From Bigelowiella natans CCMP2755 (taxonomy: Eukaryota > Protista > Cercozoa), in contig ADNK01002143.1 of the NCBI GenBank assembly GCA_000320545.1, forward strand, positions 892 to 64,891: a DNA stretch of 64,000 nucleotides, written 5' to 3'. Made by a program: the position numbers and the translations under genes. A model generated the notes under the pieces. It had not been told where the DNA came from, searched no databases, and saw nothing but the letters and a program-made list of their open reading frames with translations. Shown piece by piece: positions 15,691 through 64,000 of this stretch (the stretch's first letter is position 1; every line of letters starts with the position of its first letter).

Positions 15691-15730
<40 letters not shown>

Positions 15731-15847
15731 TACTAGCTAGCTAGGCTCGAGCGTAGCTGTACACTATTGCGGTTCAGGTTAACAAGTAGCAATTTATACA
15801 AGAGCGGTCTCTCATTGTACTCTTTTCATTTGCTATTATCGGCATTA

Positions 15848-16098
15848 TTATTGCTTCTTCCCATTCTTCATCTCACTCCCACCCTCTTTAGTTTTGCCAT
15901 TGCCATTTTTCTTTCCTTCTTCTTTCATGGCCCTAAACAAAAGCATCATCGTTAGTACAGTATTATGCAATGCTAGCCATGGAAAAAGAGAACAATTTTG
16001 TGGAATAAAAAACAAAGTGAGCAAATTTCTCTTCTCCGCTATGTCGTAGCCAATAAGACGGGCGGAAAAATCCGACATATATTCTTCAAGCATATTAC

Positions 16099-26340: not shown

Positions 26341-28080
26341 CTTGGTGGTGGAAAAGGTCTGTATGTTTCGTCGCTCGCATCGGATGAAGAACGTCCCGCA
26401 GAAAGTGCAGTCGTCACTCAATGTTAGCCAAACATTTGAGACCCTCTGTGAAGAAGACAGCATCAACAACGCTCTGGTTGCACCATCATCATCTTCACGA
26501 AATCAGTCGGAGCTGCCTTCCAGTGTGCCCCGAATGCCATGTAAATGGGTTTTCATCGTGTTTGATGTTGCAAACTGGGATGCATTGGTCACTTTGAGTC
26601 TCCTTTCGAAGATGAAGGAAGCTGAACTTTCATGCATGTCCTTCATCTTATGTGTGCAGCTGTTCCACAACCCCATCATCCGATCATTTCATCAAGTCAT
26701 CATTGAGTGGAACCTGCATTGTGGCCACACCACAACTGCGCACACACACAAAGCACATGACACATGGCAGATGCGCATGCTCATGTTTGTGTGTGTGTCT
26801 GCATCTCCACTTAGCTTTGCGATGCACAACATGCTCACCTAGGTGGTCATGTGCATTCATGTGCATCACGCGGTTCACAGTGCATTGGTGAAAAAGCACA
26901 GAGTCGGCAAACTGGGGCCAAGTTGTGAAGTGTTGGTGAAAAAGCCCAGAGTCGGCAAACTGGAGCCAAGCGTCGTGACCGTCGCCAAGTGGCAACATCA
27001 TCGCGACTGGGCGGATGTGTTGTGCACCAGTGCACACACATCAGACGTGCGTGTGCATGGAACAGCTCCAGAGCTGCTGCTGCATCAGCCGATCGATGGG
27101 ATGGATCGATTCACTGCTGTGACTCGTTCACGCACTTGCCAGCTTGGGTGCTGCCAAAAAGATCGACGCAGCACACTCGTAGCTGCCAGCAAGCTCTAGA
27201 GCTGGACGCACGTAGCGTCTGAAACAACCAACAATATGAGCAGAGAGCAGGAGACGTTTGGTTTGAACGAGTGAATCGTTTCCAACGCTAGAACGGTGCA
27301 GTCGTCGAAGCACAGTCAACTGATCAGAGCACGCCTTCTGACCTTGCTAGCTTGTTCGTTGAGCGAGCAAAAAATGAACGATTCAAGAAGTTCGATGGCA
27401 CACCACAGACACACGCACGTGCAATGCACACGATGCACGTGTCATGTGCACTGAAGACTGTGTCCATTGTGCACAGCTGAAAGGAGTGAACGAACGAAGC
27501 GATTCCAAGCAAGCAGTTCAAAGGATCATCATTGGACACTCTGATTCATCCGTGCCAAGGGTTCGTTGAAAGCTGAACACGTGAACAGAACTGAGTGAGT
27601 GAGTGCCTGAACGAGTGAAATCCACACTCATCCCGACTGGCATGAACGATCGAATGAACAATGAACAATGATGATGAACCACATGTCCAAAGTGTTGCAA
27701 GACACTTGCAGTGTGCGGAATGCAGTGCCTGAATGAATGAATGAAAACATGATTGGTTCCTTGCACGACCTCGGATTCATCCTCGAAAATGATTGCGGGT
27801 GCACTTTGCAATGAACAATGAACAACGAAAAACACGTCTCCAAAGTGTGACATGACACTTGCAATGTGCGAAATGCAGCGCCTCGAACTGGCTTCAGTGA
27901 GGACTGACTAGCAAGCTAGCGGGGTGCATGCAAATTGGCACAAACTGGAGATTGAATGCATCACAACTGACAACTGAGTGACGACGACGACGCAAAGCAT
28001 CCATCCTGAGCAGGCACACATCCTGACAGCCACGTCCACACAAGTGCGACACAATGAGGTGATGTCGCAGGGGTGCTAAA
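26341..28080. other. TpA-depleted, TG/CA-rich intergenic island with degenerate internal repeats (possible decayed mobile element)
   Basis: Hand count about 15 TA in 1740 bp, none in 27351-27908. Internal direct repeats at 26885/26933 (48-bp offset) and about 27654/27810. Confidence 0.85.
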
Positions 28081-28287
28081 ATATGAATGCGACAAGGAAA
28101 AAATGCAGTCGCAATGTGGGAACGGCAACATACTAATAACTACCACATTTCCACCCGGTGCTTGCAGTTCGTAGATCATCATCATCATCGTTCTGGTGGT
28201 GGTGCTGCTGCTGGTGGTGCACTTTTGGAATCGACGTGCCTTCTCCAGCCGTCCACCTGCATCGTATATCATCATTAGTCTTCGATC

Positions 28288-43474: not shown

Positions 43475-44571
43475 GTGATATGTCAATCGTATTCTAATAT
43501 GCACGCATCATCGTTCTATGGAATACTCAGAATAGCATAGAAGCTGTTGGATTATACGGATTTACATGGTCTTGTGTTCATTGTGCTATAGCTTTCCCTG
43601 ATAGTAGACGTGAGAATAACAGCAATAATAAACAGAATGATAGCAGTAGTGATAATTAAGAGTTTCGTTATAAGCTAGATGTACATCGAAAAATTGCACT
43701 CCAACAGCGGACAACGTGAAGGAGTAGTAGCTATGAGAATGACTGGAAAAAAAGTATAATAAGTGTTAGGTGATGATAATAACTGTTAACTTCTCAAGAA
43801 ACTACATTTCCAAAGTGTTTTTTTAAATCTGATTGCAATTCATTAATGCTGCACCCCGCCTGATGACGTACAGCACGCTTCATTAACTAGCTAGCTAGCA
43901 CTGACACTTCGTACGATAGCATCCTACAACTTGTAGTGTGTGATTGCTTGATGAAATTTGTAGCTACGCATACAGCATTTAGTAACTGCATCTGGCGACA
44001 TGGCAACAAATGCATTTGGCAAATTTGCTACAAATTCGTACATGAATGCAACAACCTAATAAGCTGCTAGAATTGAATGAAGGTACCAGATGCTTGCTAC
44101 ACATCAGGTAATCATCTAATTGCAGCGTCTGTGCTTTGCCCCCGCTAGCATGGATGGTCAATGCTTCGAAGCATTGTTACGTGTACTAGTTTGATGTCTA
44201 GATGTGTGTGGTCCGTGCACATTGATGCTATGATGAACAACAGAGAGAAACATTGCGCAGCAGACGAATCGAACAAGTATGCTAAGAAACTACTCCACAC
44301 GATGCCATGAGTGAGCCATTTTCATCAAATGTGAACGTCTTGTACATTGCATGCAGCTTGCTGCGACGAAACGATGAGTGACATCCTCTGGAGCTGGTAC
44401 CTGTCCGCGTAAAACAATCATGGCATCTTTCCTTGTTTAGCTTACGATGTTGACACATTTGCATGTTTAGCTTTCACTTTCTGCATAAAGCTAAATGAAT
44501 ACTGAGGTGCTACTACAACCTTATCATCATACCCCTACCTTGGCGGATGAAAGCAAATGCATATTGCGTAA

Positions 44572-45002
44572 TTAAGGAGTCCATAGTTTGCCCTTATCAG
44601 CTGCACCGCTCATCATGTCCTTGTAGTGCTTGTGGGTTTCTTCAATCACCTTAACTGCATCAGCCTAGTAAAATGAGGAGGAGGAAGAGGAGGAGGAGGT
44701 AGAGAGTTAAGCAAGCCAGCTGCTGATGGTTTTGAGCCATAATAAGAACCGAGAAATCGTAAAGAAGAATGATGAATAATAACGCTATACCTTTCCTAGA
44801 GCTTTCTCTCCATGGCCAAAACCGTTGACAGGCTTGTCATCTGGCGTCTTGTACCATCGAAACCATTCTCTGATTCCAGAGACGGTGCCTGGGTAATGCT
44901 TCTCAATGTCCTCCTAGAAATAGTAACAACAGCGACAACAACATTTATGATGACGATCGATACATAGATTTGAATTTTATAATATTATAAAAATACATAA
45001 TA

Positions 45003-45039
<37 letters not shown>

Positions 45040-45395
45040 TTAAGATTCCTGCTCCTCAATCTCGTAGTAGGATTCTATTCTATCTTCCTAGCCGCCATTC
45101 TTTTCTGAATTTTTTTGGTCGTCTGAGCATATGCAACGTAGTAGTACCACATCGTTGATCTCAGATGCCTTAGGATCGTTAGCATTGATAGCAATAAGTT
45201 TCCAATCAAGTTCTCCGTCATCTATCATACTGAGGACTCCAAGAGGCTTCACTGCAGTGATGGACCCCATTTCAAGCGTAGCAGAGCCAATCTCCACGAC
45301 ATCAAGAGGATCGTTGTCACCGAAAGCACCTCCGACCTGATGATGACGATGTTGAAGAAGAAGAAGATGATGATGATGATGATAATGATGATGAT

Positions 45396-45429
<34 letters not shown>

Positions 45430-46162
45430 CAGTAGTAGTAGTAGTAGCAGTAGTAGTAAGATGCATCAACGTCTCTTTATCATTAATTATAATGAAAGAT
45501 CACAAATAAATAGGTTGTGTCCTCACCACCAACGTCAAAAGATTGAAAACTCTACAATTATTTATCCTCAATTTATATTCTCTATGTGATATTATTATTG
45601 TTGTTTATTGTTATTAATATTATTATTATTATTATCATCATTTGTACGTTATCGTCTCCCTTGATGTTTGGATCTTCCCAAGTTTGAGGCAGGCAGCCAT
45701 AGTTCCAGAAGATAGGGCCATGGTAGTAACGAACCTTCCCCTTCTTCATGTCCTATATCATGCACACGGTACACACATATCTAATGTTATATCGATGTGC
45801 GTGTGCGTGTGCGTGTTTGTATGTGAGTACCAGATAGGTAGTAAAATGCTACAATTTGTTTTCCATCATAGAACTGCTTCTACTACCTGTTTGATAGGGT
45901 TAAAATCTGCCTTTGTATCGATTTCCATCTTTGCCTGTAGTAGTCGGATTATATTGATGATAATGATGATGATGATGATGATGATGGTCAATTGAGTTTT
46001 TCCAGAATAAACATTTGCATCAGCATATTTACTTCTTCTACTTTGTCTTCTTCTTCTTCTTCTTCTTACCTTGGTCATCTTGGGAATCTCGGTAACCATG
46101 TTGTAAAGTCCATTCCCAGCTTCCAAAGGAATCTGGTATTCAAATGTTCATCATTTGAGTGC

Positions 46163-46203
<41 letters not shown>

Positions 46204-46917
46204 ATAGTAGTAGTAGCAGCAGTAGTAAACGTCTGTGTGCACTATTATTCGCTTTGTAACAAATTACGTTGTGCCAGGGGGAAATGGGCTTATCTGCTTC
46301 CGAGAAGTCCATTTTGAACTCCTCTGTTCCAAGCTCTCCTTGAGGTCTAATTTGGTAGACAATAAGTATAGTCTATGTGAGAAGAAGTGACTACTAACAA
46401 TCAATCGAGAGATAATGAGTGCTGACTAAATTCGAAAAACTTACTTGCACACGACGGATGCGACAACAGCCTGTCCTAAAGCGGCCTTGCAAGCGACACC
46501 AGACTATTCAAAACAGAAAAGTACATCAAGTTCAGATATTGAGAAAATCCATCATCTTCAGTAGATGAGACTAACCTTGCTTTGGAGAGATTTTGCTGGG
46601 ATCATATCAGGCGAAGAAGAGCATCCTCCACCCACCAAAACATATCCATATCCACATGATGCCGATGCAAATCCCCTATATCATCGCATAATCGTCATAA
46701 AACTATTTTGACGAAAGCTTTGAGTGGTAGCTTGACACCACCTTCCAGGAGAGAGCCTTTGGTACGAACTGCCTCCGACAGGTCGGACAATGCGAGAGGA
46801 GGAAACTCTGGAAAGAGTACCTGCAACTTGATGAGGCTGCTTTAATTGGTTCATGACTAACAGCAAGGCAAGGGTTGCCGCTGCAACCGGAATGAGGAGG
46901 GATGCAAAGTTTTTCAT
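44572..46917 (-). CDS. PPA: Plastid-targeted soluble inorganic pyrophosphatase (family I) with bipartite signal + transit peptide
   Basis: [21 protein letters not shown] signal followed by a Ser/Arg-rich transit region. Catalytic exons ISPWHNV, EIPKMTK|AKMEI..FNPIKQ|[66 protein letters not shown]; ends GKLWTP*. Confidence 0.93.
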
Positions 46918-46919
46918 CG

Positions 46920-48240
46920 AGCTCGAGGGAGGGGGGGTTCTGTCTCTGCAGCAGTTGCCGTCGACGTGTCACATCGGTGGGAAAACGCAGGCCATTTTCA
47001 CAATTTTCACTCCTGATATTGTTGTCGTCCTTGCGCAAACAGGAAGAGGAACACGCATTCTCGAGAGAGTCCCGTGATGCCCAAGGATGGCGGCGGTGTC
47101 CAGTGAACCCTGCATCGCATTTTTGCTTGCGGGCGCTCTAGCGCTGCTGCCTGCAAATGCATGTCTCCCATGTGGTTCTTGCGCACGTTGTTTTGCATCA
47201 ATCCTAAGTTCAATGTTCAATGTTCAATGTCCTCGTAATTTCTTTGGTTGTTCTTGATCGATTGGTTGGATTCAGCATGCACGAACAAACTGCAAAACGC
47301 AAGACAGACGCACCGCTAGACCGTGAGAATGAGAACGCCAGAAGGGGGTGCACACCACCTGCCACAATCATTGCTTCCTGTGCGCTGTGCGTCCAGAAGT
47401 CTGCCACAAATTGACCATGAATTTTCTTGTGCGGACAATGACCGTGCCCTTCCAGCCTTGGAGTCTCCCTGACCAGCTAGCCAGCCGCCCTGGAGCCAAC
47501 TTTTGGCTCTTTCACATTGCACAATGAACACTCCGAATTTATTTCATTGACACAGGGACAGTGTGGATGACATCATCGGCATTTTTGCACCCCATGAGTT
47601 GCGGTGCATGTCTGTGCTTCAAATCAGACCCAACTCTTGTTGCTCTTTCCGTCGGGAGATTCAATGTGAGCTTTTCAAACACAGCTGGACAGTCTTGCTA
47701 GCTTGGTGCTGACAACCAGACCAGCACTAGCTAGCTAGAGGAGAGGGCAACCTGTAGCGAATCACAACTTGCAAAGAAATGTCAATGTGATCACTGTCAT
47801 CAATTGTGATCTTCATTTTGAAGGAACAGACCAGCAGAACACGAAGGTACGTCGAAAGGTGAGGAAGGCAAGGGGGCACCGCAGCATCCTTGTTGGATTG
47901 CCCTGATTCTAGGATTGTCTGTGATTGAAAGAGATCTGGAATTTGCTAGTTTTGCTGATTTCTGTTGGTGACGATGTCACAAGAATGATTCATCATGTTC
48001 ATCTAGTCACAACATGTGAGCATCACGTGTCACTGACCACTCAAGACCACACATGTGTGAGCGACACACTAGCATTGAACATGCAACTATCACAAAGCAA
48101 TCTAGCGATGATGATGTGTCAAAGCTACGCACATCTCACAGACGTCAGGAGACACATTGCTCCACACACCTGCACAAGTGAACATCGCTAGAATTTCTTG
48201 TTGGTGTAAATTGCACTGACAGCATGTGCAGCTTGGTTCA
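46920..48240. other. TpA-depleted intergenic island
   Basis: Hand count about 22 TA in 46861-48240, 13 of them inside CTAG. Confidence 0.85.
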
Positions 48241-48341
48241 CAACGCCGCATGCCGGCGTACACGCGTGAATGTGGGGTTACTCCTTACAAACCAGTGTGT
48301 TGTGAGGTTGTAGCAGCAGCTTCTTTGCTTTCAGTAGACTG

Positions 48342-51300
48342 TTACACGTTTGCTACTTCAGCTTTTCCATTGTCTGCAGTGGACATCATGTTCCTTTCAT
48401 TTTCACCCTGGGTTTGATTGGCAAACTTTTTGTTTCCTTCCTCCAACTTAGATTTTGAAGCGCGATCATTGTTTTTCATACAACCCCATTTCCTTAGATA
48501 CACAGCACATCCACCTTTTTCTAGAATCCAAGAAAAATCAGAAGCATCTCCTTGAGGTCCGAATAGGAGCAAGACAGACATGAAGAACAACAAACTGAAA
48601 CTCAGGCCGAACGCTACGGTGGAAGCCATGAGGGCTCCCATTGTTGGGAAGAATAAATGTTGTGTTGCAAGTAGCGGAAGCGAGGCACCAAACGTCGTTA
48701 CACCCCCAGCAATTACAGTCGCTGCCATACCCACAGCTGCATGAGAAAACCTGAAAACATGCAACAGTTTAGAAACATGCATACTGTGTAACTTAAAGCC
48801 TTACCTGTCAACTTTAGTTTGGATACCAAAACTGTGGAACGCGTCAACAAAAGTATGACCAAGGTGAATTACATAGTCGACCGAGAACACAATCACATAA
48901 GTCGACCGAGAACCCAATCACTATAACACCAGCCACAGCCTCGCTTACACCAAGAGCGCCTCCGCCCCAGACTATGGTTGCAAGAACACATCCGACAATA
49001 AATAGAATCGAAAAGATTGCGTAGACAGAGACCAAAACATTTTGAGTGGAAATTAGAAGAACACTAAATGCGACAGGAAAACAGATAACTAGCCCAGAAT
49101 AAAATCCCGCAACTATCCCGAGTTCTGCTTCTACGTTGACCCATTCGTCAGATGCTGCAAACGTGTCGTCCATTCGGACCGCACCAATTAAGCGAGCATT
49201 GTTGTTGATTTCATCAGCAAAGTCATCTGCAACCGTGCGGGCTTTTTCCTTGTCAACTGTAGTCTCATCCTCGTCAATTGACGTAGAGAATTCAACTTGC
49301 ACAAACTTCAGCTCGTCGTTGATGAATCCTATAAGCTGTTGTTTCTCAACAACAGATAGATCATCGTCTAATGTTGTGTTCCTGTAGAGTTTCAATTCCG
49401 ACATGAATAAAGATCTTGAGCAGTTGTATGTGGAAAGCCCTGGATTTCGTTCAGAAAACCAAGTTTGGAATGTCGGAAGGAAACATTTTAAAGCATTTGC
49501 ACTAGGGGGCATTAAGAGTCCAAAGTTGCAAGCGGATTTATCGCAAGTTCGTGTTCGACCAGCTTCACAAACAAATAGAAATGCTCTTTGAGATGCTTCC
49601 TAATTATTTTATGATCATGTTATCAAAAGGGGAAATTCTTGAAAATAACACATAGACGCGTCAACATATACTTTGAAATTATCATTATTTAATTGTTCAA
49701 GATGTGTTTTGCAAAGGAAAAGTTTGTGCGGCATATAAAATATAAAATAGAAAAGGTTCGAAGAGGCAGATAGACAGAGGGAAAACTAGAATTCGCGGGA
49801 ATGGGCATAGTTTCACTGAAAAGAAATAATCCATTCGAGAACTCTAAGTTGCCTCTATCTTTGCTTGGTTCATACACATTAAAACTTCCTCGGTCAAAAT
49901 CATCGATTCCAAAAGGATATCGCAGCTCCACGAAACTAGAAAATAAAATAGATATAAGGGATCAGTATGATGTACTGAATCATCACATCAAGAACCTGCT
50001 CAATTTTTCTGGAATGTAATTGTCTATAATTTCATCAGGTACTTCAACAAGCATGTTATCGCTCGGTAAAAACTGTGTTGACTCATCAGGAAGAGAGAGC
50101 TATAAGCCGTAAGCAAAGGAGGTTATCCCATATATTAGGAAAAAAACAAACATTATGATGGCAACCCAGTGATAGCCTTTATACTGCTGTCTCATTGCTG
50201 GAACGTATGCTTTGGAAACAAGCTTATCAAGGATTTCTTGAGATTCTTCCTTGTTTTCTTCTATTACCTTTTCATCTTCATTAGCATTTTTTCCTTCGTG
50301 GGTTGTATTACCATAAAGTTGCCCCATTGCAGCTGTTGACAATACCCCTAGATTACTGGTGCTCCCCTTCCTGTTAATACCATCTACGATAGAATCCTTT
50401 TTCACCCCAAGGGTAGACTCTTTCTGTTCCTTCATTTCAATATGTCTTTTATCCCCCATAATATCTCCTAGAACAGATGGTTTATCTTCGTCCCTCTCAT
50501 CAAGAATCATTCTATACATTCCGTAACAGCAAAACTTCTTTTTCTCGAACCACACGTGGTTTGTAACCAAGATTGCTGGTACAAGTGAAATGACCAAAAT
50601 GAAATTAAGCAGAATCGCCGTAGCTGCAAGAATACCGAAACTTCCGATGGGCATAACAGGGGAAACAGATGTTGCAAGAAAAGATACAATAGTCGTAAAA
50701 GATGTAGTAAAGATTGATCCTACTGAACTTGTAAACGATATCTCCATCCGTTTTTCAAGTATGTCGTCTTCGTCCTCCTCATTCTCAATCATTTCCTGGA
50801 TTTCAGGAGCATCGAGAGAGAAACGCCAACCATCATACATGACAAAGACATCATCCGCACCGATTCCTAAGACGAGGAATATGACGAGGATATGTATAAA
50901 CTGGAAATATGGTACTTGGAAGACGCTTCTGTATACGACAATGGCTAGGGGTAAGGAGAAAATGACTTGGAGCATACAAAATGTAGACAGGAAGAAGTTT
51001 TTCATCTGAAATGCCATCCATCCGTACACAAAGGCAAGTGAGAAAATGCAAAGTAGAAGATCTCCACTTGCGATCTCAGTTGTCTCGATATCTGTAAGGG
51101 GTCCAGAGAACCATTTGCAACGAATACCATTGTGTTCTTGTCGTTCACGATATGGACTAAAAAACCATTGTTGCTCCATATTAAAGAAATCAAAAAAGTC
51201 ATCCTTTACGTATTCGTAGAAGTCTAGGAAATCAATCTGCTGCTCAGATTGTCGATCTGTGGGGGAATTATACCCCTCAAGCGGTGTTCCAAGATCAATC

Positions 51301-52440
51301 TGCGAACGGGTCCTCTCAGTAAAAACTGGAGAGCGCGTCTCAGTATCTTTCTGAAATTAAGGAAGATAGATCAGCTATGATAATTAGAACATAAATATGT
51401 TCGTACGTCCATGAAGAAGAATGAATAAGCTCTGGTTTCATTGCTTATTATCGATCCATCGTAGAGCTCCTGAGCTCTGTTTCTTACGACACTATCGCTT
51501 AGTAGTGGACACGAGGCGTTGGCAACGGTTCCATAGAATGCGTATGTAATTGTAACTGCAACGGACAAGTTATAAGCGAACCATACAAAATAGGATGATG
51601 CTGTTGATCTCACATTGAGGCTCCGCGCAATTTCCAGATGTGCTATTCAATTTGCAATATCGTGTATAGTCCTGGGTATTAAGAAAGATTTGTTCCACTT
51701 CACACATGCTTTTAACATTTTGTGAGGTGAAGATATCTCCGCCTCTGTGTAAAATATAACAGAATTAGCATTGGTTCTGTATTAGAATAAAAATTTACTC
51801 ACCCTCCTTCAAAGGTAATCCAGAAGCGCGATCGATCATCAGCCTGTGCTCTTGGGCTCACCTGGCCTGTAGCAGCTAAATTTTCTGCGTCATCTACCGC
51901 TTCATTTTCGATAGAAGCTCTCCCAAATGGGACAACCTAGAAATATTTGGATTAAAGATCGTAGATGCTGTTGACCATAAAGTACCCAATCATATATCGT
52001 TGGTTCGGAAAACTCAAAAGACCCGCCTGCGAAGCCAGAAACTGTGACACTGAGGAAAATCTACACTGTAATGCTGTTGTCGAATTGTCGAACGACGATG
52101 AATATGGTTACATGAGGCAGAAGAACAAAATACCAAACATAACCGATGCCGGGAATTGAGTCTGACATGAAAGGATATCATGATCACATGGGATTTATTA
52201 ATAAATCTATGCATTACAATGAGTTGAGACATGTATCCAACACTTGAATGAACAGGATGGCAGTCTCTTTTGTGAGGAGGCAAAGCGTGCGGGATTCGTC
52301 TCTGTGGATATCGAGTTGGAAGATCAGTCTAAACGAAAGACGGATCGACGCAATGACGGGACCTTTGCTCTTTGGTGAGCTAATGGAAACGGGTACTGCT
52401 TCTTCTCCTCTTCATAGCCATCATCAAATTCTTCTTTCAT
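48342..52440 (-). CDS. Dispatched/Patched-family RND transporter with sterol-sensing domain; as assembled it carries a 25-nt frameshifting duplication
   Basis: FLVLGIGADDVFV (GxxxDD of TM4), SIFTTSFTT, second-repeat IGFSVD...YVIHLGH, GMAATVIAGGVTT, SLLFFMSVLLLFGP. Two 6-TM repeats and a luminal loop. Start approximate. Confidence 0.85.
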
Positions 52441-52588
52441 CTCGTCTTTTATCTCTTATACCTCGTCTTTCATGGCAACCTCATCCATGGTACTACTAGT
52501 ATCACGCATGATGGCACTTGGATTGTCCGCTTGTACACTCAAGTTGATTGTTTTCCTCAGAAGACAGTGAAGAGCACTGACAACTCAC

Positions 52589-53053
52589 ATGAATGAACTC
52601 CGTTCTATTTCCGCGTCATTCATCGAATGTCTCGAAAAACCATATTTCTACCTAACAAAAAATCGACGAAGATCCAAGCTCGCAAAGTTGAACATGACTT
52701 TTTTGATTGAAAACATCGTTCCTTCGACGCGTGCCTCCGAACATTCTGATTGCGAAGGTTCTGATGATGGCACTCTGTTGGCAGCACCGATTCGACAAAA
52801 TTGCCATGGGCATGATCGGTGCGACACACTTTCCTCGAAATTTATCGAACACAGCGGGTTCGAACAGCCGGAACGGAATCCAGTCCGCAGTGGCCTTTGG
52901 CCTTGGCATCTGTTGATGGTCAACAAGCGAATCAGTGGCAGCATTGTTTTGGATGCAAAAATGTGCCAATGGCAGATGTCTCGGAGAGCCTCCAGAGACA
53001 ACACCTGGCACTTTGAACGTCCTGCACACGCGCTGCACCCAACACTGCCATGA
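52589..53053 (+). pseudogene. Degraded ORF inside a TpA-depleted island (Tyr codons apparently converted to His/Cys)
   Basis: 154-aa frame with no Tyr after about residue 21, which is where TA depletion starts, and many His/Cys codons (e.g. CAA AAT TGC CAT GGG CAT GAT CGG TGC). Confidence 0.4.
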
Positions 53054-53779
53054 CCTCTGTTGCTTCCAAAATCACGAAAATTGCATGCGTCTTTTGACAC
53101 AGAACTGCTTCATTCGTTCTTTCATTCACCATCGATTCAAGCCACTTTTCTTTCAAACACCTTGGTGGCTTGTTTCTCAGCTCTGGCCAGAGCGCTGCTT
53201 CACTGGTGCACCCTTGCTGGCTTGTTGAGCCCGCTGCTCCAGTCCAGCTAGCCAGCAGTGAAACTGTGCCCCTTTTTTTTCTTGAGAAGCGTCCAACTTG
53301 TCGGTGGTGCTTGTGGCCCACCTTGGTTGGAACGTCGAAGTGAACACAAATCAACCAATCAACAAATTGATCAACTGAGCGAAGCTGCAACACGCTGGCA
53401 CGCCCAGATCGGTCTGGCAGTGGACGTCGGTGACCAGTCTGACGAGCGCATCACTGGACCATTGATTTGCATGGGGTGTGCTCATTCCACTAGCCAGATG
53501 GTGCACACAACGATATACGCAGTCAGCGGTCGTTCTGGCGCAAACAAATCCATTTCATTGTTCTGGTGTCATCACTTGTGCATCATCACATGCTGGCATG
53601 CCACAAATTGTGCACTTTGTCAATGAAAACAGCAGCATGTCCGCGCGCAAATGCATGCATGCACATGCGCATTCATCTGCGATGCGATGCGGAGATGGAT
53701 GGCTGATGGATCAAGTGAATCATGATTCGCATGAGCACATTGAATTCACTTGGATCATCCTTGATCAAATTCAATTTTC
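52655..53779. other. TpA-depleted intergenic island
   Basis: Hand count 5 TA in about 1125 bp (1 TTAT, 2 CTAG, 2 in GATATAC); CpG abundant. Confidence 0.9.
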
Positions 53780-53810
53780 TAGCAACCTGTGTCGACATCT
53801 AAGGCGGCTG

Positions 53811-56175
53811 TTACCCTTTTTCTACGTCATCATCTACTTTTGGCTGTAGCGATGTCACTGCGGAAATACTGCGTTTGATGTAAATGTGCTCTTTTTCACT
53901 TTCTTTTACTTCCATAGCCGCTTGCCACCTTAGTGCTGCGTTTGATTGAAGACTTTCACTTGGGTTCGACCTACAAAAGTCTATCATGGCCTGTTTTTGA
54001 GCTGCCGAAATTGCTCTTCTTCCATTAACATGGCCAACACATCGTTCTTGTTTATCGTCCAATAACCAGCACCCCCACTCATACACACGCTGAAAGCCTC
54101 TACTTCTTATATCTGCAATTTGAGCCTGGCCAAACTTGTCTTCGATGAACCCACCACGAGATACTAGCTTCCTTGCTGGATCGAACACAAAACTACGATA
54201 CCATTCGGTCTTGCAGATATGTGTTGAGTCGAGCCATTGAACCAAAGGTGTCAGTGGCACATCGGCAACAACCAATTGCTGAATCTGCGAAGGAATTTGA
54301 ACCTTATGCTTGCCTTTATTCAACAAGTCTCCCAGTTTCTTCAAATATCCGAGAGTGCTAGTATTTTGCAAAAGAATATAATTGACACTTTTCTCAAAAG
54401 CAAGTGCTTTGATAGCACCTAATAAATTAAACTCTCGCATAAATACACGATCGTGCTGAAGTACCAAGACGAAAGGAGTGGACACCTGTCTTAAACCTTC
54501 TCTCACAGCAAAACCAAATCCATGCCGCGAACTCAGCTGGATGATTTTCGAATTCTCCCAAACTCCCATATTAGCTTTAGAGAGCTGCTCCAAACGATTC
54601 TTATAACCCTCATACGCTTTGGACATATCGTCAGTGACTCTACCTCTTCTGTAATTGTTTGTTTCGGTAACTTTGGCACCATCGCATACAACTATCATTG
54701 GGGCTTTGATGAGAGGCGGCGCATACTGTATGAGAGAAGTCAATGTGACCTCTATCAGAGAGGTAGACGGGCATGAAGGAACTGGGGAAGTAGTGACTAG
54801 AACTGTAATTAAATCCTTTATGTCATCTAACGACTTTGGTGTCCTCATCTCCTGGATAGGGATTTCCTGAGAGGACACGTTCGTACCACTCGATTTCATC
54901 TCTGACTGATCCTTGTTTGCTGCACCTTTCTGCTGCACCTTTTTACCATCAAGACCCATATTAAATATCTGTAGTCTCATTTCTTCATCGAATTGGATCT
55001 TCGGGTTTGACGATGCGTATACTTCCAAGATCTTTTGGATATTGCGTCCAATTTCATTGCTAGTATCAAGCAAGGCACTTACAGAGTTCTTTTCCTTCTC
55101 CGTGAGACTTATATCATCCCAGCAGCGACCAATAAGCTTTAGCTGTAGGGTGGTGGACTCAAAGTACTTGATGTCAAACTTTGAATGTATCGTCGATTCA
55201 AGGTGGCCTGGAGGCATGCGGAACGTACAAGGTTTTCGTGAAAGGAGAAAATTACTTTTTAGTTTTATCAATCTAGGCAGAACTCGATCAAGAGGACGAA
55301 TTTCTGGTTTACCCCGTCTTCTCTCCCAGAAAAGCTTCCCAGGGTCATCATTCAAAATTTTCACCAAGTATTTGAATGCTTCTTGGGATATCTTGTAAGC
55401 GAACATTCCCCACACCACGTCGACCAGCTTCCCGTTCTTGACAGGTTGTGGAGCTATCATTGTATACTTTCCTTTACGATATTCATCAGGCAAAGCCTTG
55501 CTCCTCAATTCAGTAATCCTCTTCTGCTCCTCAAGGCTCTTGCAATCCGCCTTGATATCCTCACAACATACAGTTGATGAGAGATTCGAAAGACCATGAA
55601 GGTGAGCTAGCGTGTCGTGATAAATCATGTAACCAAAGTATACTAAGTCCTCTTTCTGGTATTCCTCTAGAATGTCTCGAATTATTTGAGGAGCATCGTT
55701 GCAGAACCTGATATTGTCTTCAACAATGAGATCATAGCCTTCATCAATTGCAACAGCCATAGCCCTCAGATGGGCAATAGCTGCCCCAAGAACCCTTCCA
55801 TCACTATCTCTCAGCTTCTTCGCGCGCTTTTTAAATTCTGAGGCGTCGATGCCAGCCCGGTCACATGCATCCCCGCCATCTTTATTCCAACCCTTTCCCC
55901 TTCGAATCAGCGACGCTCCGTTGACGCCTCCTACGAATCCAAGCTCAATTTCCTGAAGATGAAACAACCCTAGTCTTCATGTTGGCAGATTCGATTCAAT
56001 GTGGTTTGCACTAGGCTGGCGTAAGTAGATTGTAACGTGAAAATGAGCTGCTCTAGATGGCTACCTCCTTGAAATTGGATTGAATCAACTGTTCCAGAAC
56101 CTCCTTTCTTTCGCCACCCATTGTGACAACGAGGATGCGCAGCTTCCGCTTCCTAGTTTCTTTCTCCTCATGCAT
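53811..56175 (-). CDS. Tandem glycosyltransferase: N-terminal GT25-like domain + C-terminal GT-A-fold domain
   Basis: Exon 1 LRILVVTMGGERKEVL splices to the 718-aa ORF: FVGGVNG..GAAIAHLRAM..LIVEDN (GT25-like), then VLVTTSPVPSCPST..IVVCDG..GFGFAVREGLRQVSTPFVLVLQHD (GT-A with QHD in the DxD position). Confidence 0.7.
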
Positions 56176-56920
56176 TTCGTTCTGCTAAAATAGTTATAGG
56201 AGGAAGTATTGGTCCAAATTTAGTACACGAAATGGTTCTTATTGCAAGCCGAAGGAAATAGAAGAGGAAACCAGGGAGACATTAAGAACCCCCTCGGCGA
56301 GGCTGTATAAAGTCGAACGTACTCGAAGAGAGAGAGAGTGAGTACTCGTCTGTTCTTTTTGTTGTCTATACGGAAGGAAGTTAGGAACTTATGTAGGACG
56401 CTTCGATAGGAAGGTACTAATGATCAGACAGCCATTGCATCGCAGCGGGAGGGAGGGGGTGTGTCCATAGATTATTGCAACACTCCGCAACAACAACAAC
56501 AACAACAACAACAACAAGTCAAGGGCGCGAACAGAATAACTAACTATGAAAATCACTTCGGTGTAACAACATAGCTGGGAAGTCAAGGGCGCGAAAAGAA
56601 TAACTAACTAACTAACAACAACCAGCAGCTGCAGCCTATTTTGTACATATCGCATATGGCATATTTCTGACTACAACTCGAATACTTAAACAACACTCCG
56701 CAACAACTAACTAGCACTAACAAGGATGTTATTCGTAAATACATGTAATAATAACACTACTACCACAGATCATTCCAGCCACACAGACAGCCAGACCACG
56801 TAACAACCACGTGGAGGGAGGGAACGGAGGACACACACACACCACCACCACCACCACCAGTAGCACCAGCAGTTAAACAGGCAGCCGGTGCACTATGATG
56901 ATGATACGAAAGCTTGCAAG

Positions 56921-57769
56921 ATGTCGTCAGCCCTGCCTGGTATTATCTTCGTTTACCTTTTGTACATATTCGTGGTCTGTACCAACTGGGTTGTTTGTGT
57001 AAGAGGGAGGCAGATAACTAACGCAACAAAACTTTCCTTAGAGAAGATCTCTAATGTCCAAGCTACACGTTGCACGGAGAAGATCTTTCATGTCAAAGCC
57101 ATGGTATGTTCCTGACTCGGTTGAAGTGGAAGAGAGTAAAGGCGTGACTCCTATTACACTTTACTCAAATTTGAAGCCATGGCGAACTAGGGTCACGGCA
57201 GCTTTCACGACTGGAAATTTCTTCTTCTTCGCATGGTTTATGGAAGCAACGAACACACCTGGCCATTTCATAGAAGAAATACCGGTTGCGAAATTTTGAG
57301 ACTTGCCACATAGCATGATTTTAAAAGTATTGTGTTTTAGTACTGTGGATTCCTCGGCTTTTTCGGTGTCGCTGGAAGCGCGGTCATGCTTGCCGCAAAT
57401 ATGAGAGCACGGACGAACAACATAGTGATGGTATAATTTTCATAACTGCATTGTATATTCTTGAAAGTTCTCACATATTTCTATGTTTATTGATTTTTCA
57501 TTCTCGTTGGTCAGATAAAATTACACGAGGACCAACAAATTCTAGAATTCTTCTGGCATACTATTCTCGGGGGCACTGTTAGCAAGCTCTGCCCGACGTA
57601 TGCACTTAAGATATCTGCATATACCCCTCAGAATAGGGATTCCGAGATGATTTTCTTTCAAGTTCCTTTCCAGAAAGGTAATTTTGCGATAAGCCGAAGG
57701 GGAGAATTCAAAGATGAAGAAAAATTGATGGAAATATTTGGGAAAGGAATGACCCCATATGATGTTTGA
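56921..57769 (+). CDS. TMEM70/TMEM186/TMEM223-like two-TM mitochondrial membrane protein
   Basis: Exons join to ...ITLYSNLKPWRTRVTAAFTTGNFFFFAWF..EIP|YCGFLGFFGVAGSAVMLAANMRARTNNIVM|IKLHEDQQILEFFWHTILGG...RRGEFKDEEKLMEIFG..*. Arg-rich N-terminus; first exon uncertain. Confidence 0.55.
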
Positions 57770-58704
57770 TTTCGGATTGAAAACATTCGAAACAGCGACA
57801 CAGGAACATAACACACGCAGCAAATATGTGCAGGTCCATTGCATGTATTTGTAATCAGCTTCAAAAAGTGTAAAGCTGAAGAGCACATATACTTGTTACG
57901 TTTGGCTTTAGCATGAGAGACTAATAACAATTGAAGACATGCTCTGTTGGAGACGATGTAACGATGTGATTGAACAAGCTTGTCAGATTCTGCCTATCTA
58001 GCTGTCGATCATTGCATTGTTTTCATGTTGACACATCCTACGCATGCGTACACACATGCGATCTAGCTTATTCACTGAACTTTCACCTGATGTTTCAATG
58101 AGACACGCGCGTGCGCAATGAAATGAAAGGTTTTGCATCTGGTTCCTCAAACACTGACATTGTCCGTGTCTGTGCACACAGCCATGCATGTTTGCATGTG
58201 CCGTCGTTACATCGTCCCCATCATCGCACATTACGGCACGCATTACGCAGCAGGGCCAGAGACACCACATTTTTCTTCTTCTTCGATCGTCTTTCATCTT
58301 TGAAGAAGGAGGACTTACACGACATTGGCGATGCTACAAGCAGGTCGCATCACCAAGGTGTGCTAGCAAGGCAACTGAGCAACACTACGCAATCCATCTA
58401 TGCCACCGCAAAGTTCATCACACAATGCACCGTAGCAAAGTGAAGCATCGCATCGCAATGACATGATGTCACTTGTTGTGGTGCAATCACACAGGCATCG
58501 GCTTGCGCTGCGGCGCCCATGCATTCACATGCGCATGCACGCATGCATGTGTAGTGTTGGGGTGCTGTTTGAAAGGTTTGGTCATGTCAGTACATCTGTC
58601 TCTCAGCGCGTGATGAACGTTGCAGACGATGTAGCTAGCGCTATGCTTGTTCTGGTACACGTGCCCACGCTTCGATACTCACTGACGAGGATGCTTCCTG
58701 TCTG

Positions 58705-59767
58705 TCATTGTGGGCTCATCATGTGCCCCCCGTCGCAGTCTAGCACGAGGCCCGTGACAAAGGTGTTGGTCATCAGAAAAAACACTGCGTGCGCCTGTTC
58801 TTCGGCTAGAGAATTACGCTGCAGGGGCACCCTCGCGGCAGTCTTCGCTTGATGTTGCTTCGCCCAATGATCGAGAGTACCCACAGACCGGGGTTAGCGT
58901 CATTCCAGGACTCAGGCAATTAATTCGGACTTACATTTTCGCCCGTCAAACCCTTGGTCGCAGGCCATAGTCTTCACTGCCGTCTCGATAGCCGCGTTCG
59001 CGATGGCGAGGGCGTCATTTCCCTTGCCGGGGCGACGTGATGAAACGCCAGAGGTCATCACGATGCTCCCACCTTCCTTGATCTTCGTCCCGATCGCAAG
59101 CACAGGTGCAAGCTGAGCATAAAATTTGAAGTTCATTTGGCGACGGACGTCGTCGCACGTTCGATTGTTCTTTATCAAGTCTCCACACTTGGCGCTTCCC
59201 CTGGGAGTAGCAACAAGGTGATCGATGCTGCCTCCAGGCAAATCCGCAAAGAAACTCCATTTTGAGACGGCCGGATGTACAGATCAAGCAAATGATATAA
59301 GGTTATCAATCAGTGTCATGGAATGGAAACTATCGATGTTGATTTTACCTTCTTACTGCTTTCTCATCGAAAGCGTCTGAAGAGGTGGCAAACACCTTGA
59401 CCGAGTTCCCAGCGGCTTCAATTGCGGCCTTGGCCTTGGCGAGTTTCTCTGGGTTCCGTGCGACAATGTGGATTCGTGCTGCACCCTGCTGCGCGGTGCC
59501 AATAGCTACGGCCTTACCGATTCCCGAGCTTCCACCAAAAACTACGAGGCTGGTACCCTCGATTTTCGCCGGGCCACATTTGGCAGGTTGTGCGGTGGTG
59601 AGAGGCCTTTTTCCTGCCTTCGCTTCTGCTATCTGCCTAAAGCTGTGGCTATGACTTGTGTACAAAGATGCGCAGAGCACCGCGGGTCCTAATACCCCCA
59701 AAGCTCTCCTCGCTCGCAAGAAACCTCGGATGTTAAAGCGACGGGTGTAGCGCTTGATTCTGAACAT
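58705..59767 (-). pseudogene. Short-chain dehydrogenase/reductase (atypical, no YxxxK) with two compensating frameshifts: pseudogene or sequence error
   Basis: FGGSSGIGKAVA, GSIDHLV, GSIVMTSG, AIANAAIE. The motif VRINCLSPGMTLTPV (58881-58931) is in a shifted frame, while the C-terminus RVPLQRN..FLMTNTFVTGLVLDCDGG is back in the original frame after in-frame stops. Confidence 0.75.
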
Positions 59768-60111
59768 TGGGGTTACCGGATTCTGAACTGAGAATCTTTC
59801 TCCTGGATGTTGATGATGATTTCGGATTAAGGTGCAAAAACAGTTCAGTCGCACTTGAAAAGTGTCCTGTGTTTGCATCATTGTATGGGTTTGAATAGTT
59901 TGAATCAAATTCTCCTACTGTACGAGTACCGGTACTCGTAGGTTTGCACAAAACCAATTGATAGGATGCCATTTTACATCTACGTCTTCACAAACAATGA
60001 AAAGGAGAAATGTCCTAAATTTATCATCATCCGACATGAGGTTGTCGGTTGTCGTAGTACTGTAATAGGTCCGTGGTAGCAGATCCCTTTACGCACACGA
60101 CAACACGCAAG

Positions 60112-60372
60112 ATGAGTGCGGCGCAAGAGATGGGGGCAGCCCCCTCAACCTCCGAAACTACCACAACAACTACCACCACTACTACTACAAACACAGAAAC
60201 TCCAACACCTGTGGCAGGACCTACTCCCCAGCCATCAGACACTAATGAGACAAAGATTGACGTGACAACAACCACCACCTCATCGGGTTAGCAGCGATTT
60301 ATAGAAAGAAAGAAGCTGCCATTGTTTAGTTTTTCTTGCCAAGAGATTATTCAACATGCCCATGTCATAATC

Positions 60373-60428
<56 letters not shown>

Positions 60429-61500
60429 CATATACAATGTTTAGGTGCAGAAGGTGATGAAAAAAAGGAACAGGGCGAGGGAGGAAGTGGAGAAGGCGTA
60501 AGCGGAAACAACGATTTCATTTTTATTATGAGAATCTCTTGTGAACTCCAGACTTGCGGGAATATCATTGGCAAGGTCAGATAAAGACCCAAAATTCATC
60601 TCTGAGAATACTTTAAAGAAAGAAAGAAACATCTATGCTTTAGTATCATTTCCTTGTATTTTATATTGAGTTGTCCACCATGTTCATTTAGGGAGGGGAT
60701 AAGATTAGAAAGATGACGGAAGAGAGTGGAGCATCCATTAGTTTATCGGACTACATTAAAGGGGCGACGCACCGTATCGCATCCATACGTGGCACCAGAG
60801 CTGCGGGTAAATATATTATATATGTATTATATATATATAATTTGGTGTCAAAACCATCAGTATTTCTTCCTCTTCATCTTCATCATCTTCTCCTTCCTCT
60901 AATCGAGATTGTGTTGCATGTATGTATTCAATCATCATAATTTAGTAATTATGGCAACAAAATCCGTTGGTCGCGCTCTGAACGAACCGAAGCTTGTTGG
61001 CAATGAAGTTCCCACCCTTACTGAGCCCCTGAAGTACCTCGCCGTCGTTCTGGTCGTTCCAAAAGCGCACGGTAGAGAGGACAGCATCCTTTCTTAGAAT
61101 CAAGTTTTTGAATATTTATCCTTTGTACTTAAATATGGCGTTTATTGCTACCAGTTGGCGGCATTATCGGAAAGCAAGGAGCAAAGATTAAGCAAACACG
61201 CATAGATTATTCAGAATGCAAGATTCTCATCTCGGTAAATCGATATAACATTGACCTCCACCGCCCATTACTCTACTACTACTACTATTACTACTGTTTC
61301 ACCACTGCTACTACGGTAAACAGATATTATCTATAACAATGATTTGTTGTTTTAACACAGGACAAGGCCATGATGGGCCCTGATAACACAGTCACGATTT
61401 CTGGACCAACGGAAAAAGTGGAACAGCTTATTGAAATGTACGTCAAGAGGAGGAATGTGCAATTAAGAACATGTATGCCATACTGACGTATATTCACGAA

Positions 61501-61538
<38 letters not shown>

Positions 61539-62308
61539 TTAGGTTTGTGAATCAGATTGCAGATCATGTGTCTCCCGGGGCAGACTACCGACTCCCCCCT
61601 GAATGCGTTACTACTTATTCTCCTCCAACACCATCACCTTACGGAGGAGGAGGGGGAGGAGGAGGCCCTCAGGGAGGAGGTTACAATCCCTACCAGCGAG
61701 GGGCACCTGTCACTGGCCCCTCTTTGTATCTCGGGCCTTCTATCGGTCTAACAGGCCAAATGAAGATTCTAGTCGAGTTTGATGCTAATGATGTCGGCAC
61801 CATTATGGGTCGTAACGGCGATCGATTGAGAAGAATATCTATGGAAACAGGAGCATCGGTAACTTTACCTTCCACGTATGACACGTCTCCTACCCGCGTC
61901 GTAACGGTGGCAGGTCCCCCAAAGGGCGTGGCAGCGGCGTTACACTTCATTGCAGTACATATAGGGTTAACTCGTCCGCACAAGGGCACTGGTCCAATGT
62001 TTCTAACCCTCAAGATGGATCCGGGAGAGCTCGGAAGTGTTATTGGGAAGAGGGGCTCGAGAATAAACGCAATGCGTGATGAATCAGGAGCACGAATAGA
62101 AATCGATCCAAAGGGCGGAATTAGCATTGAAGGCCACTCCCCAAATCTTGCAGCTGGCTTGATGATGGTGCTCATGCAGCTTCATGAGCAGCGAGAGAAG
62201 TTCGGCGTGCCTCAGAACGTAGGTAAGCAAAGCTATCCACAAACCTCTGGAGGAGGAGGGGGGTATCAGCAGTACCAGCCACAATCTGGTCCTTACCAGC
62301 ACATGTAA
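60112..62308 (+). CDS. KH-domain RNA-binding protein (4 type-I KH domains; PCBP/hnRNP K/HEN4-like)
   Basis: GNIIGK|GGDKIRKM, GGIIGKQGAKIKQ, GTIMGRNGDRLRRI and GSVIGKRGSRINAM GxxG loops; Gly/Tyr/Gln-rich linker and tail. Confidence 0.9.
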
Positions 62309-63601
62309 TATTATGTAGAGAACGCTCCTCATGCTATATTTTCATCATCGCTCTCCTGCTGCAGGTTTTTAGTCTACCATCACTGCTGTTGTTGACAGTG
62401 GATTAATAGGTCACAAATTGCTGGTGTCTCGATTTAACACTGCATGGGGTCATTCTGTAATACGCTAGCGCGAGTAAATGCAATGTTCCATTCGATCGCG
62501 CGCGTCGCTACAAGTGCATTGCGATGCTAGCTAGCTAGCTCTAGTGCTCGTGCAAGCGCAGCAAGGGATGTGACGTGCTCCGCACACATGTGCACAACCT
62601 TTCGGACGCTGCCATTACAGCCATGCACACATCGCGCGCGCTTCATTCACTTTTGACGCTTCTATGTTGAAAGTGCTCAAACGTTCTTTTTTGACAGTTT
62701 TCTGACAAAATGTTCATCGTTTACTTTTGTGAACTTTTCACCGTTGTTTTCACATGCGTTCGCAAGTGACAGTGTCACTCGTGTTGTTGCAACCTGGGTG
62801 AGATTGCCAATACACGAGACACGACACAATGCTCGTTGCTGGTTATGAACGATGATGACAGCACTCTGTTTTGTTGAAAGAAAGTTTTGGGTTCGTGATT
62901 GTGAACATTGACCACTTCTAGACTTCAATTGACAACTCTCTCGTGTCCCCGTGACGCAAACGTTCCACCCATTCACCATGGAACGTTTTGATGTGAGATG
63001 CTGTGTCATCTAGCTAGTCTAGTAGTCATTGAGGTTTCCAACGTGCAAACTTGAAACAATCACTTTTTTCTTCACCTGTTATGGTCACAGTGGCTGCGCG
63101 TGTGCTAATTCTAGAATTAAATGTGTCACGCAGCTCAGCAGCACCACACTACAGCTGCTATTGCTAGATTGATGCACAGCTCAGATCGAGCAACATGCAA
63201 TGCTAATTCACCGATATCGATGCACACGTGCAGCTGCTACTACTGTGCATGGCCGCGTGGATGGCACCCAATAGTCGCGCACAGAGTAGCATGCATGCTA
63301 CGTGCACCTGCAACGCCGTGCATGACGTGAGCAGAGCTTCAAACTTCGTTGGTCGTGTCATCATCAATGCTAACAATTTGCATGTTATGTGATCATTATG
63401 TACATCTAATCGCATTCTTCTTCTCTCTCCCGCCGATCGACGGAAAACAAGATAAATGTATCATTTGAGTTTTCTCTCCTTCCGTTCCACCTGCTGTTAT
63501 GTATGACATCTCCTACATCGCCTCTTCTTGATCATTTCCGGCAGTGTACATCAGCAATATGTTTGAAGGCGGCTTAAAACACATACACAATCTATCCCCT
63601 C

Positions 63602-63664
63602 TTAAAGCTCGTCGTGATATGTGAGGGTTGGTGTAAACACGTCTAGATTAGCCAAAATTTCGGC
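63602..63664 (-). CDS. Probable terminal exon of an ER-luminal protein extending beyond the window
   Basis: TTTCCAG acceptor, then PKILANLDVFTPTLTYHDEL*, a C-terminal HDEL retention signal. Confidence 0.45.
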   Translation of the reverse strand, partial: AEILANLDVFTPTLTYHDEL

Positions 63665-63772
63665 CTGGAAACATCAAGGAAACGGAATTACACGAGGAAG
63701 ACAGATTTTTACATGTGCGAAATTATAAAACACAGTTCAATAATACACACCACTCGTGCATATAAACCCGTA

Positions 63773-63852
<80 letters not shown>

Positions 63853-64000
63853 TTGTGACATGGTTTAAACTCTGTCAATCTACATGCATGATCGACATTG
63901 CTTATTTACTTACAGACACACAAACACACACACTTATACATAATCACACACCCACAGAGATAGAGACATAGAGAGAGAGATACAGATACATAGATAGAGA

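What the first reader, a model, noticed from the sequence alone, without database searches (positions are those of the whole stretch)
52589..53779. Fossil gene recording the direction of mutation: Tyr codons turned to His/Cys
Seen: only 5 TA in 52655-53779. The + ORF 52589-53053 has Tyr (YFY) only before the island boundary and then none, with many His/Cys. Inference: back-converting selected CAY/TGY codons to TAY gives a more ordinary-looking protein (..PIRQNYYGYDRYDTLSSKFIEYSGF..LWPWYLLMVNKRISG..KMYQWQM..TWYFERPAYALYP), which suggests a once-normal gene or TE fragment overwritten by TA>CA/TG. The process also erases TAA/TAG stops, which explains the dense overlapping His/Cys-rich spurious ORFs in every island.
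Basis: partly seen in the sequence, partly recalled or inferred. Interest (0 to 1): 0.78.

Follow-up and report, generated by a model that had tools for sequence, protein, structure and literature searches.

The report
TA-erasing mutation scars behind algal genes
In this alga a 1.1-kb stretch between two ordinary genes has lost almost every TA step and gained CA and TG, likely the scar of a targeted self-mutation process so far described for inserted viral DNA, and the flagged 'fossil gene' inside it is likely just a by-product of lost stop codons.

Summary
The TA-poor island is real: 5 TA against 72 expected, with CA and TG each 1.66-fold up. The 'fossil gene' is not supported. The ORF's only relative among 1.84 billion representatives is a 97% identical transcript ORF. 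The island is single-copy in three DNA runs. Converting TA in ordinary gaps opens frames this long in 41-100% of trials. The ORF overlaps, antisense, the first exon of a spliced Patched-like transcript. Not in the preprint's main text: all five islands of the window start at a host gene's 3' end (5 of 9 such gaps, 0 of 6 divergent gaps), and CTAG is about three-fold spared.

The parts
52655..53779 (.). TA-depleted, CA/TG-enriched island (island 3), filling the gap between two - strand host genes
   Evidence: 5 TA vs 71.6 expected; sharp edges; flat single-copy depth in 3 DNA runs at 80% likeness
52589..53053 (+).
   Evidence: only relative P0001, 149/154 identical; no Pfam, PHROGs, NCBIfam or PDB match
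52802..52804 (+). Codon TGC (Cys72); Tyr in the relative P0001, compatible with a TA/TG difference
   Evidence: the relative's DNA was not seen
52363..52951 (-). First unspliced piece of a Patched/Dispatched-like transcript (5' leader plus start; only ATG open to the exon end is at 52440); the island covers its first 300 nt
   Evidence: spliced RNA contig of 4317 nt with CT..AC joints; Pfam Patched on 50103-51356; ATG scan. Contig ends do not fix the start site
53811..55976 (-). Host gene (721-aa frame, glycosyltransferase-like by Atlas look-alikes) whose 3' end borders the island; normal TA content up to its last codons
   Evidence: 45% identical to an Amorphochlora amoebiformis protein; RNA contigs end 53759-53796
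53652..53671 (.). Run of 10 alternating units, all CA/TG/CG, no TA; would fit a converted (TA)n microsatellite
   Evidence: similar mosaics with TA units occur outside islands, so this is suggestive only
53248..53493 (.). Two of the five surviving TA lie in CTAG (53248-53251, 53490-53493)
26400..28130 (.). Island 1, between the stop of a + strand phosphodiesterase gene (26324) and the inferred stop of a - strand gene (about 28135)
   Evidence: orientation of the right-hand gene from sequence reading only
46830..48340 (.). Island 2, from the 3' end of the Patched-like gene to the start of a - strand pyrophosphatase gene
47141..47230 (.). Fragment of a dispersed repeat with hundreds of copies; other copies read A, G or T at 47189 and T or C at 47188 (TA, TG, probably CA)
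   Evidence: in run X4, A 13410 and G 6185 of 22574 at 47189, C 2672 of 22574 at 47188; phase unknown
58000..58720 (.). Island 4, between convergent 3' ends (a + strand gene and a - strand short-chain dehydrogenase gene)
62520..63400 (.). Island 5, beyond the 3' end of a + strand KH-domain gene

Best explanation
The island is host intergenic and leader DNA that has likely been overwritten by the TpA>CpA/TpG mutator described in Bigelowiella natans, and the flagged ORF is likely a frame left open because TAA and TAG were erased with the other TA. Shown here: TA loss with matching CA/TG gain, sharp edges, single copy, position from the 3' end of one host gene into the leader of the next, relative sparing of CTAG. 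Inferred: the mutator edits the A of TpA on either strand (A to inosine, read as G, by an ADAT-like deaminase, as the preprint proposes without proof); it reached DNA just past mature mRNA 3' ends, episodically and at some gaps only, and was largely kept out of gene bodies; it acts less on CTAG, through a context preference, a protecting mark or selection on a CTAG element.
For: TA+CA+TG conserved, 0.217 in five island segments vs 0.221 outside. In-silico TpA conversion of four TA-normal 3' gaps brings their trinucleotide spectrum to the islands' (KL 0.157 to 0.031); context-free AT>GC reaches only 0.114; converted coding DNA 0.086. Same spectrum measured in mutation-accumulation lines of B. 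natans; window 53001-54000 passes that preprint's cut-offs. Chlorarachniophyte origin. ORF: no relative but P0001; frames of 132+ codons arise in 72% of simulations from this island's own Markov model, 25-27% from the other islands', and in 41-100% of conversions of each of 6 other stretches; purine at codon position 1 is 69/132 vs 63% in host genes, p=0.007. Position: non-CTAG TA falls from 34-77 per kb in 3' UTR or last codons to 7-20 per kb in the next 300 nt at all 6 gene ends examined; 5 of 9 3' gaps vs 0 of 6 divergent gaps are islands, p=0.044. CTAG is 35 of 113 TA in strong gaps vs 39 of 309 in weak gaps, OR 3.1, p=4e-5.
Against: The ORF part (52655-53053) is compositionally closer to converted coding or 5' DNA (KL 0.143, 0.154) than to converted 3' gaps (0.212). 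Its codon score lies between the classes (3.5% of converted coding segments score lower, 12% of island segments higher; purine/pyrimidine phase 7% and 13%). Three or more frames of 132+ codons occur in only 9% of own-model and under 1% of other-island simulations. P0001 has Tyr at Cys72. Four of 9 3' gaps keep their TA, so position alone does not suffice; classes were drawn after seeing the data, and gene ends left of 44500 rest on codon scans, not RNA. Sharp edges and a weak inverted repeat at them (p=0.034, 1 of 5 islands) would also fit an old insertion. No mutation was observed in the island itself, and the species is not shown.
Confidence: 0.62

Rival explanations
1. One reading: the ORF (or the whole island) is a decayed foreign insert, a gene, TE or viral fragment, that drew the mutator; His/Cys codons are former Tyr codons.
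For: The preprint ties the mutator to foreign DNA and finds RT/DDE domains enriched among TpA-poor CDS. Coding-like composition of the ORF part, intermediate coding scores, Tyr72 in P0001, 14/17 inverted repeat at the island edges, a high-copy repeat fragment inside island 2.
Against: No relative in 1.84 billion representatives, in longer proteins, viral, metagenome or prokaryote contigs, phages or plasmids, or profile libraries. No second copy at 80% likeness in 3 DNA runs. 11 of 12 His/Cys sites unchanged in P0001; one Tyr difference among 5 has chance 0.15 without any TpA effect. Island gaps (0.6-1.8 kb) are no longer than TA-normal 3' gaps (0.9-1.0 kb as delimited). Host-like purine bias is missing.
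Confidence: 0.25
2. Same scar, other chemistry: a thymine modification of TpA (5-hydroxymethyluracil or base-J-like) is laid in transcription-termination zones and miscodes T>C, which on the two strands gives the same CA/TG products.
For: Islands start at 3' ends and three of five lie between convergent genes. [quoted passage not shown] TpA is self-complementary, so sequence cannot tell A>G from T>C.
Against: No such enzyme or base was looked for or is reported for this lineage in the papers seen (listing); the preprint names an ADAT2-like candidate.
Confidence: 0.12
3. No dedicated mutator: GC-biased gene conversion or selection against UA in RNA produced the islands.
For: Islands are GC-richer (0.47-0.51 vs 0.41-0.46 in weak gaps); TA-poor DNA is near transcript ends.
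Against: Context-free AT>GC does not reproduce the spectrum; the loss is strongest outside mature mRNA, with 3' UTRs near normal; CA and TG rise equally.
Confidence: 0.05
4. The ORF is a young, working antisense gene born from stop-codon loss.
For: Start, stop and length are the same in P0001, which was called on a 2552-nt transcript.
Against: Five amino-acid differences in 154 between close relatives; low Atlas recognition, 1109 (weak evidence by the tool's own note); spliced RNA over this DNA is from the opposite strand.
Confidence: 0.04

Closest known systems
TpA hypermutation in Bigelowiella natans (bioRxiv 10.64898/2026.01.13.699255; whole main text read, supplements not seen)
   Same: TpA>CpA/TpG on both strands, TA depletion with CA+TG gain, chlorarachniophyte host; three of 64 non-overlapping 1-kb windows here, one over this island, pass its cut-offs.
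   Different: The preprint's targets are 186-kb and 25-kb viral inserts and clusters of 3 kb or more; these islands are 0.7-1.8 kb, have no detectable foreign homology and start at host gene 3' ends. 'CTAG', 'downstream' and 'terminat' do not occur in its main text.
Repeat-induced point mutation (RIP) of fungi (recalled; also compared in the preprint)
   Same: Regional, dinucleotide-specific, two-strand transition mutagenesis with sharp compositional islands.
   Different: RIP runs CpA>TpA and needs repeats; this runs the opposite way, removes stops instead of making them, and island 3 is single-copy.
Base J / 5-hydroxymethyluracil at transcription ends of kinetoplastids (PMC4344527, PMC2896530; listing and start of abstract only)
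   Same: A base-level mark concentrated where transcription stops, notably between convergent units.
   Different: Not known as a T>C mutator of TpA; no evidence here for a modified base.

Membership tests
B. natans-type TpA hypermutation scar | [quoted passage not shown] | tested here: met
   0.07 and 1.66 for the island; 0.26 and 1.66 for 53001-54000
B. natans-type TpA hypermutation scar | Both products (CA and TG) in equal measure, TpA-specific rather than general AT>GC | tested here: met
   CA 120, TG 113; simulation
B. natans-type TpA hypermutation scar | Direction shown by de novo or polarised changes in the region | tested here: inconclusive
   Cys/Tyr difference with P0001, no DNA, unpolarised; TA majority with TG and C alleles in the island-2 repeat, unphased; no differences in island 3 among the DNA runs laid
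B. natans-type TpA hypermutation scar | Target is foreign (viral, virophage, TE) DNA | tested here: not met
   No homology found for island 3; decayed foreign DNA could escape these searches
B. natans-type TpA hypermutation scar | Host is B. natans | tested here: inconclusive
   Chlorarachniophyte by neighbour gene; no call named the species
B. natans-type TpA hypermutation scar | Caused by a DNA adenosine deaminase | not testable with these tools
   Hypothesis in the preprint too; no genome held
Pseudogene / fossil gene | Detectable homology to an intact gene | tested here: not met
   only P0001, the same locus in a close relative
Pseudogene / fossil gene | Residual three-base coding signal beyond chance | tested here: inconclusive
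   between coding and non-coding; purine-1 bias absent (p=0.007 vs host genes)
Transposon fragment or MITE | Further copies in the genome | tested here: not met
   flat depth over 47423-53900 apart from two short bins, 3 DNA runs, 80% likeness
Transposon fragment or MITE | Terminal inverted repeats at the edges | tested here: inconclusive
   14/17 arms at 52662-52678 and 53749-53765, p=0.034 uncorrected, 1 of 5 islands
Fungal RIP | C>T at CpA raising TpA in repeats | tested here: not met
   TA is lost, not gained; single copy

The most novel reading that the evidence does not exclude
The chlorarachniophyte TpA mutator is not only an antiviral defence: it strikes the transcription-termination zones of ordinary host genes, gap by gap, rewrites the promoter and leader of the next gene and synonymous sites of nearby exons, and is held off CTAG by a protecting DNA mark, which would make it a chromatin-guided DNA editor with a built-in self-protection motif.
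Probability: 0.27. Interest if true: 0.78.

Novelty: new variant of a known kind. Interest (0 to 1): 0.42.

Why it matters
The process itself is in a 2026 preprint, and the flagged ORF is probably not a gene, so the finding as written is of modest value. What could matter is where the scars lie. If short TA-erased islands track host poly(A) ends genome-wide, the mutator is recruited by a feature of transcription termination or of untranscribed chromatin, not by foreignness alone, which narrows the search for the unknown enzyme and its guide. CTAG sparing gives a testable substrate rule. Practically, such islands breed spurious His/Cys-rich ORFs that enter databases (P0001 is likely one), which may explain part of the excess of unannotated genes that the preprint saw in TA-poor clusters.

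Tried and rejected
Homology for the ORF: none in Pfam, PHROGs, NCBIfam, PDB sequences, phages and plasmids by tblastn, viral contigs (30, 72), metagenome contigs (53), prokaryote genomes (70), longer proteins (47), ESM Atlas (73); 'shorter' proteins were not searched by words, but one search had no length limit. A search with a back-converted protein was not run, so a relative visible only after back-conversion stays open. No whole genome is held; no orthologous locus of the 721-aa neighbour in metagenome contigs; exact look-up of 10 window frames found none, so the species stayed unnamed. No RNA holder is listed as on record; the guessed-RNA contigs do show splice joints. Low or missing RNA cover over 52963-53750 is not used as evidence. 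No structure model was obtained. No Rfam match (43), no tRNA (102), no stable fold of the island-2 repeat (101), no exact match of its core in viral contigs (71). A giant-virus early-promoter-like 8-mer at 53771-53778 is at chance level, 8 in the window vs 5.8 expected: rejected. The internal duplication in island 1 shows no CA-vs-TG site and gives no direction. Blastn on TA/CA/TG-collapsed DNA gave only low-complexity hits. The synonymous-site count included an out-of-frame piece and was redone. The bacterial promoter scan (78) is not applicable. Paper searches for CTAG/6mA in Bigelowiella, modified T in chlorarachniophytes (51), Amorphochlora dinucleotides (56), TpA editing at convergent genes (65) and TadA/6mA (83) listed nothing on islands at gene ends; the library misses most subscription papers.

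Full report
Observation. The stretch 52655-53779 holds 5 TA against 71.6 expected; CA and TG are each 1.66-fold enriched and CG is 0.82. Change points fall at 52654 and 53780. The + ORF 52589-53053 is there, with 2 Tyr before the edge and 0 Tyr, 8 His, 4 Cys in the 132 codons inside. That His+Cys share (9.1%) is below the share in all frames of the island (10.5%). Four more strong islands lie in the window.

Organism. The neighbouring 721-aa frame has one relative among the 7997 candidates scored, 45% identical over 684 columns, in a cluster named Amorphochlora amoebiformis. The window has spliceosomal introns. It is therefore chlorarachniophyte nuclear DNA; Bigelowiella is my inference, no call named the species.

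The process. In five island segments TA+CA+TG sums to 0.217 per base against 0.221 outside, as expected if TA was turned into CA and TG. Converting 85% of TA in four TA-normal 3' gaps moves their trinucleotide spectrum from KL 0.157 to 0.031 of the islands'; the best of four context-free AT>GC levels reaches 0.114; converted introns and coding DNA stay at 0.089 and 0.086. A bioRxiv preprint (10.64898/2026.01.13.699255; whole main text read; supplements not seen) reports 231 of 302 nuclear mutations of B. natans accumulation lines in two viral inserts, almost all TpA>TpG or CpA, and 124 clusters of TA-poor, CA+TG-rich windows. Three of 64 non-overlapping 1-kb windows here pass its cut-offs, one of them over this island, but none forms a three-window cluster. 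Direction within this window is only hinted: a repeat fragment in island 2 has hundreds of copies whose commonest letters at 47188-9 are T and A, with G (6185 of 22574) and C (2672 of 22574) as minor letters in run X4, phase unknown.

The ORF. Searches found one relative, P0001, an automatically called ORF on a 2552-nt MMETSP transcript, 149 of 154 identical; HMMER over 1.84 billion representatives returned only it, and 354 longer candidates gave nothing. Three DNA runs, any of which may be the source of the window, show flat single-copy depth over the island at 80% likeness, so there is no close paralogue. An open frame of 132 codons or more arises in 72% of 2000 simulations from this island's own Markov model and 25-27% from the other islands', and in 41-100% of 200 conversions of each of six other 1.1-kb stretches, some of which include bits of predicted exon. 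A spliced contig of the Patched-like gene runs on the - strand from 52951 to 48183 (strand from CT..AC joints), so 363 nt of the ORF are antisense to its first exon; the leader would hold 15 upstream ATG, so the main start may lie further down and contig ends cannot settle it. Against my reading: the codon score of the ORF lies between converted coding DNA (3.5% of 86 segments lower) and island DNA (12% of 182 higher), the purine/pyrimidine phase score likewise (7% of 57, 13% of 204), the ORF part resembles coding or 5' DNA more than 3' gaps, this island has more long frames than its own model usually gives (9%), and its edges carry a 14/17 inverted repeat (p=0.034 uncorrected). For it: purines at codon position 1 are 69 of 132 against 63% in ten host pieces, p=0.007. 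I put a fossil insert at about one in four.

Where the islands lie. With RNA joints for 44500-64000 and codon and Pfam scans elsewhere, all five islands begin at a host gene's 3' end: three between convergent genes, two between tandem genes. Non-CTAG TA density is 34-77 per kb in 3' UTRs or last codons and 7-20 per kb in the 300 nt beyond, at 6 of 6 ends examined. Five of 9 gaps with a 3' end are islands and 0 of 6 divergent gaps (Fisher p=0.044); the classes were drawn after looking and 8 of the 15 gaps, plus both ends of island 1, lack RNA support. The four TA-normal 3' gaps share the CA/TG-, TGCA- and CTAG-rich flavour and look like unconverted versions. The last 100 codons of the phosphodiesterase and 721-aa genes keep normal synonymous TA, whereas the 3' exons of the dehydrogenase gene have 7 of 45 against 324 of 893 elsewhere, p=0.004, so the process may leak into some exons. 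CTAG makes up 34 of 100 surviving TA in islands against 168 of 4341 outside; against the fairer control of weak 3' gaps it falls 1.7-fold while other TA fall 5.3-fold, OR 3.1, p=4e-5. CTAA/TTAG, CTAC/GTAG and GTAA/TTAC are partly spared as well (0.3-0.4 vs about 0.1).

Mechanism. Most likely an episodic TpA editor, by the preprint's unproven proposal an ADAT-like DNA adenosine deaminase, acted on DNA just beyond mature 3' ends and ran to the next gene body. The enzyme, the trigger and the reason for CTAG sparing are inferred, not shown; a thymine modification would leave the same trace (listing of base J papers). The preprint's main text has no 'CTAG', 'downstream' or 'terminat'; searches listed no paper on such islands, within a library that lacks most subscription journals. 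Of the ChlorV preprint (10.1101/2025.11.19.688996) I saw passages only; CTAG does not occur in its main text. Two earlier AI notes on diatom genomes describe TA- and CG-erasing islands; they are unchecked leads, and CG is not erased here.

Verdict. Real island, known kind of process, probably no fossil gene; the placement at host gene ends and the CTAG rule are the parts worth following.

Noticed in passing
window 47141-47230: About 90 nt of a dispersed repeat with several hundred copies by depth (up to about 85,000 vs 88 in run X4), also abundant in the guessed-RNA contigs; other copies continue leftwards beyond 47144. Family unidentified.
   Followed up: partly
window 6650-7600, 14931-15850, 39600-40600, 43500-44400: TA-normal 3' gaps rich in CTAG (rho 1.9-4.7), TGCA/CATG and alternating purine-pyrimidine runs, including tandem CTAG repeats; CTAG also occurs close to several RNA contig 3' ends. 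A 3'-end element is possible.
   Followed up: partly
window 53811-55976 (-): Expressed gene with a 2.1-kb exon and no Pfam match; Atlas look-alikes are mostly viral clusters, one a 685-aa Glyco_transf_25 plus Glycos_transf_2 cluster; orthologue in Amorphochlora; TA content normal.
   Followed up: partly
window 58726-59252 (-): Short-chain dehydrogenase 3' exons have reduced synonymous TA and high GC3 (0.61-0.71) next to island 4; the reading of the last exon junction was not resolved.
   Followed up: partly
window 52440-52510 (-): Upstream of the Patched-like ATG an in-frame acidic stretch with three further ATG is cut off by a single TAA next to a short duplication; the true N-terminus may differ between strains.
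   Followed up: no
window 26885-26970 and 27653-27883: Two local duplications (38 nt, 95%; about 78 nt, 81%) inside island 1.
   Followed up: partly
window 50676-50761: An 86-nt piece of the Patched-like coding region has a second copy elsewhere in the DNA runs with 5 differences: a paralogue.
   Followed up: no
window 46741-46962 (-): First exon of a pyrophosphatase gene with a signal-peptide-like leader (bipartite plastid targeting, recalled pattern); it is mildly TA-poor where island 2 reaches it.
   Followed up: no
window 1-46000: Introns are crowded with microsatellites ((TA)n, (CA)n, (GA)n, (TAG)n, (GAT)n); none of 12 nt or more was masked inside the five strong gaps.
   Followed up: no
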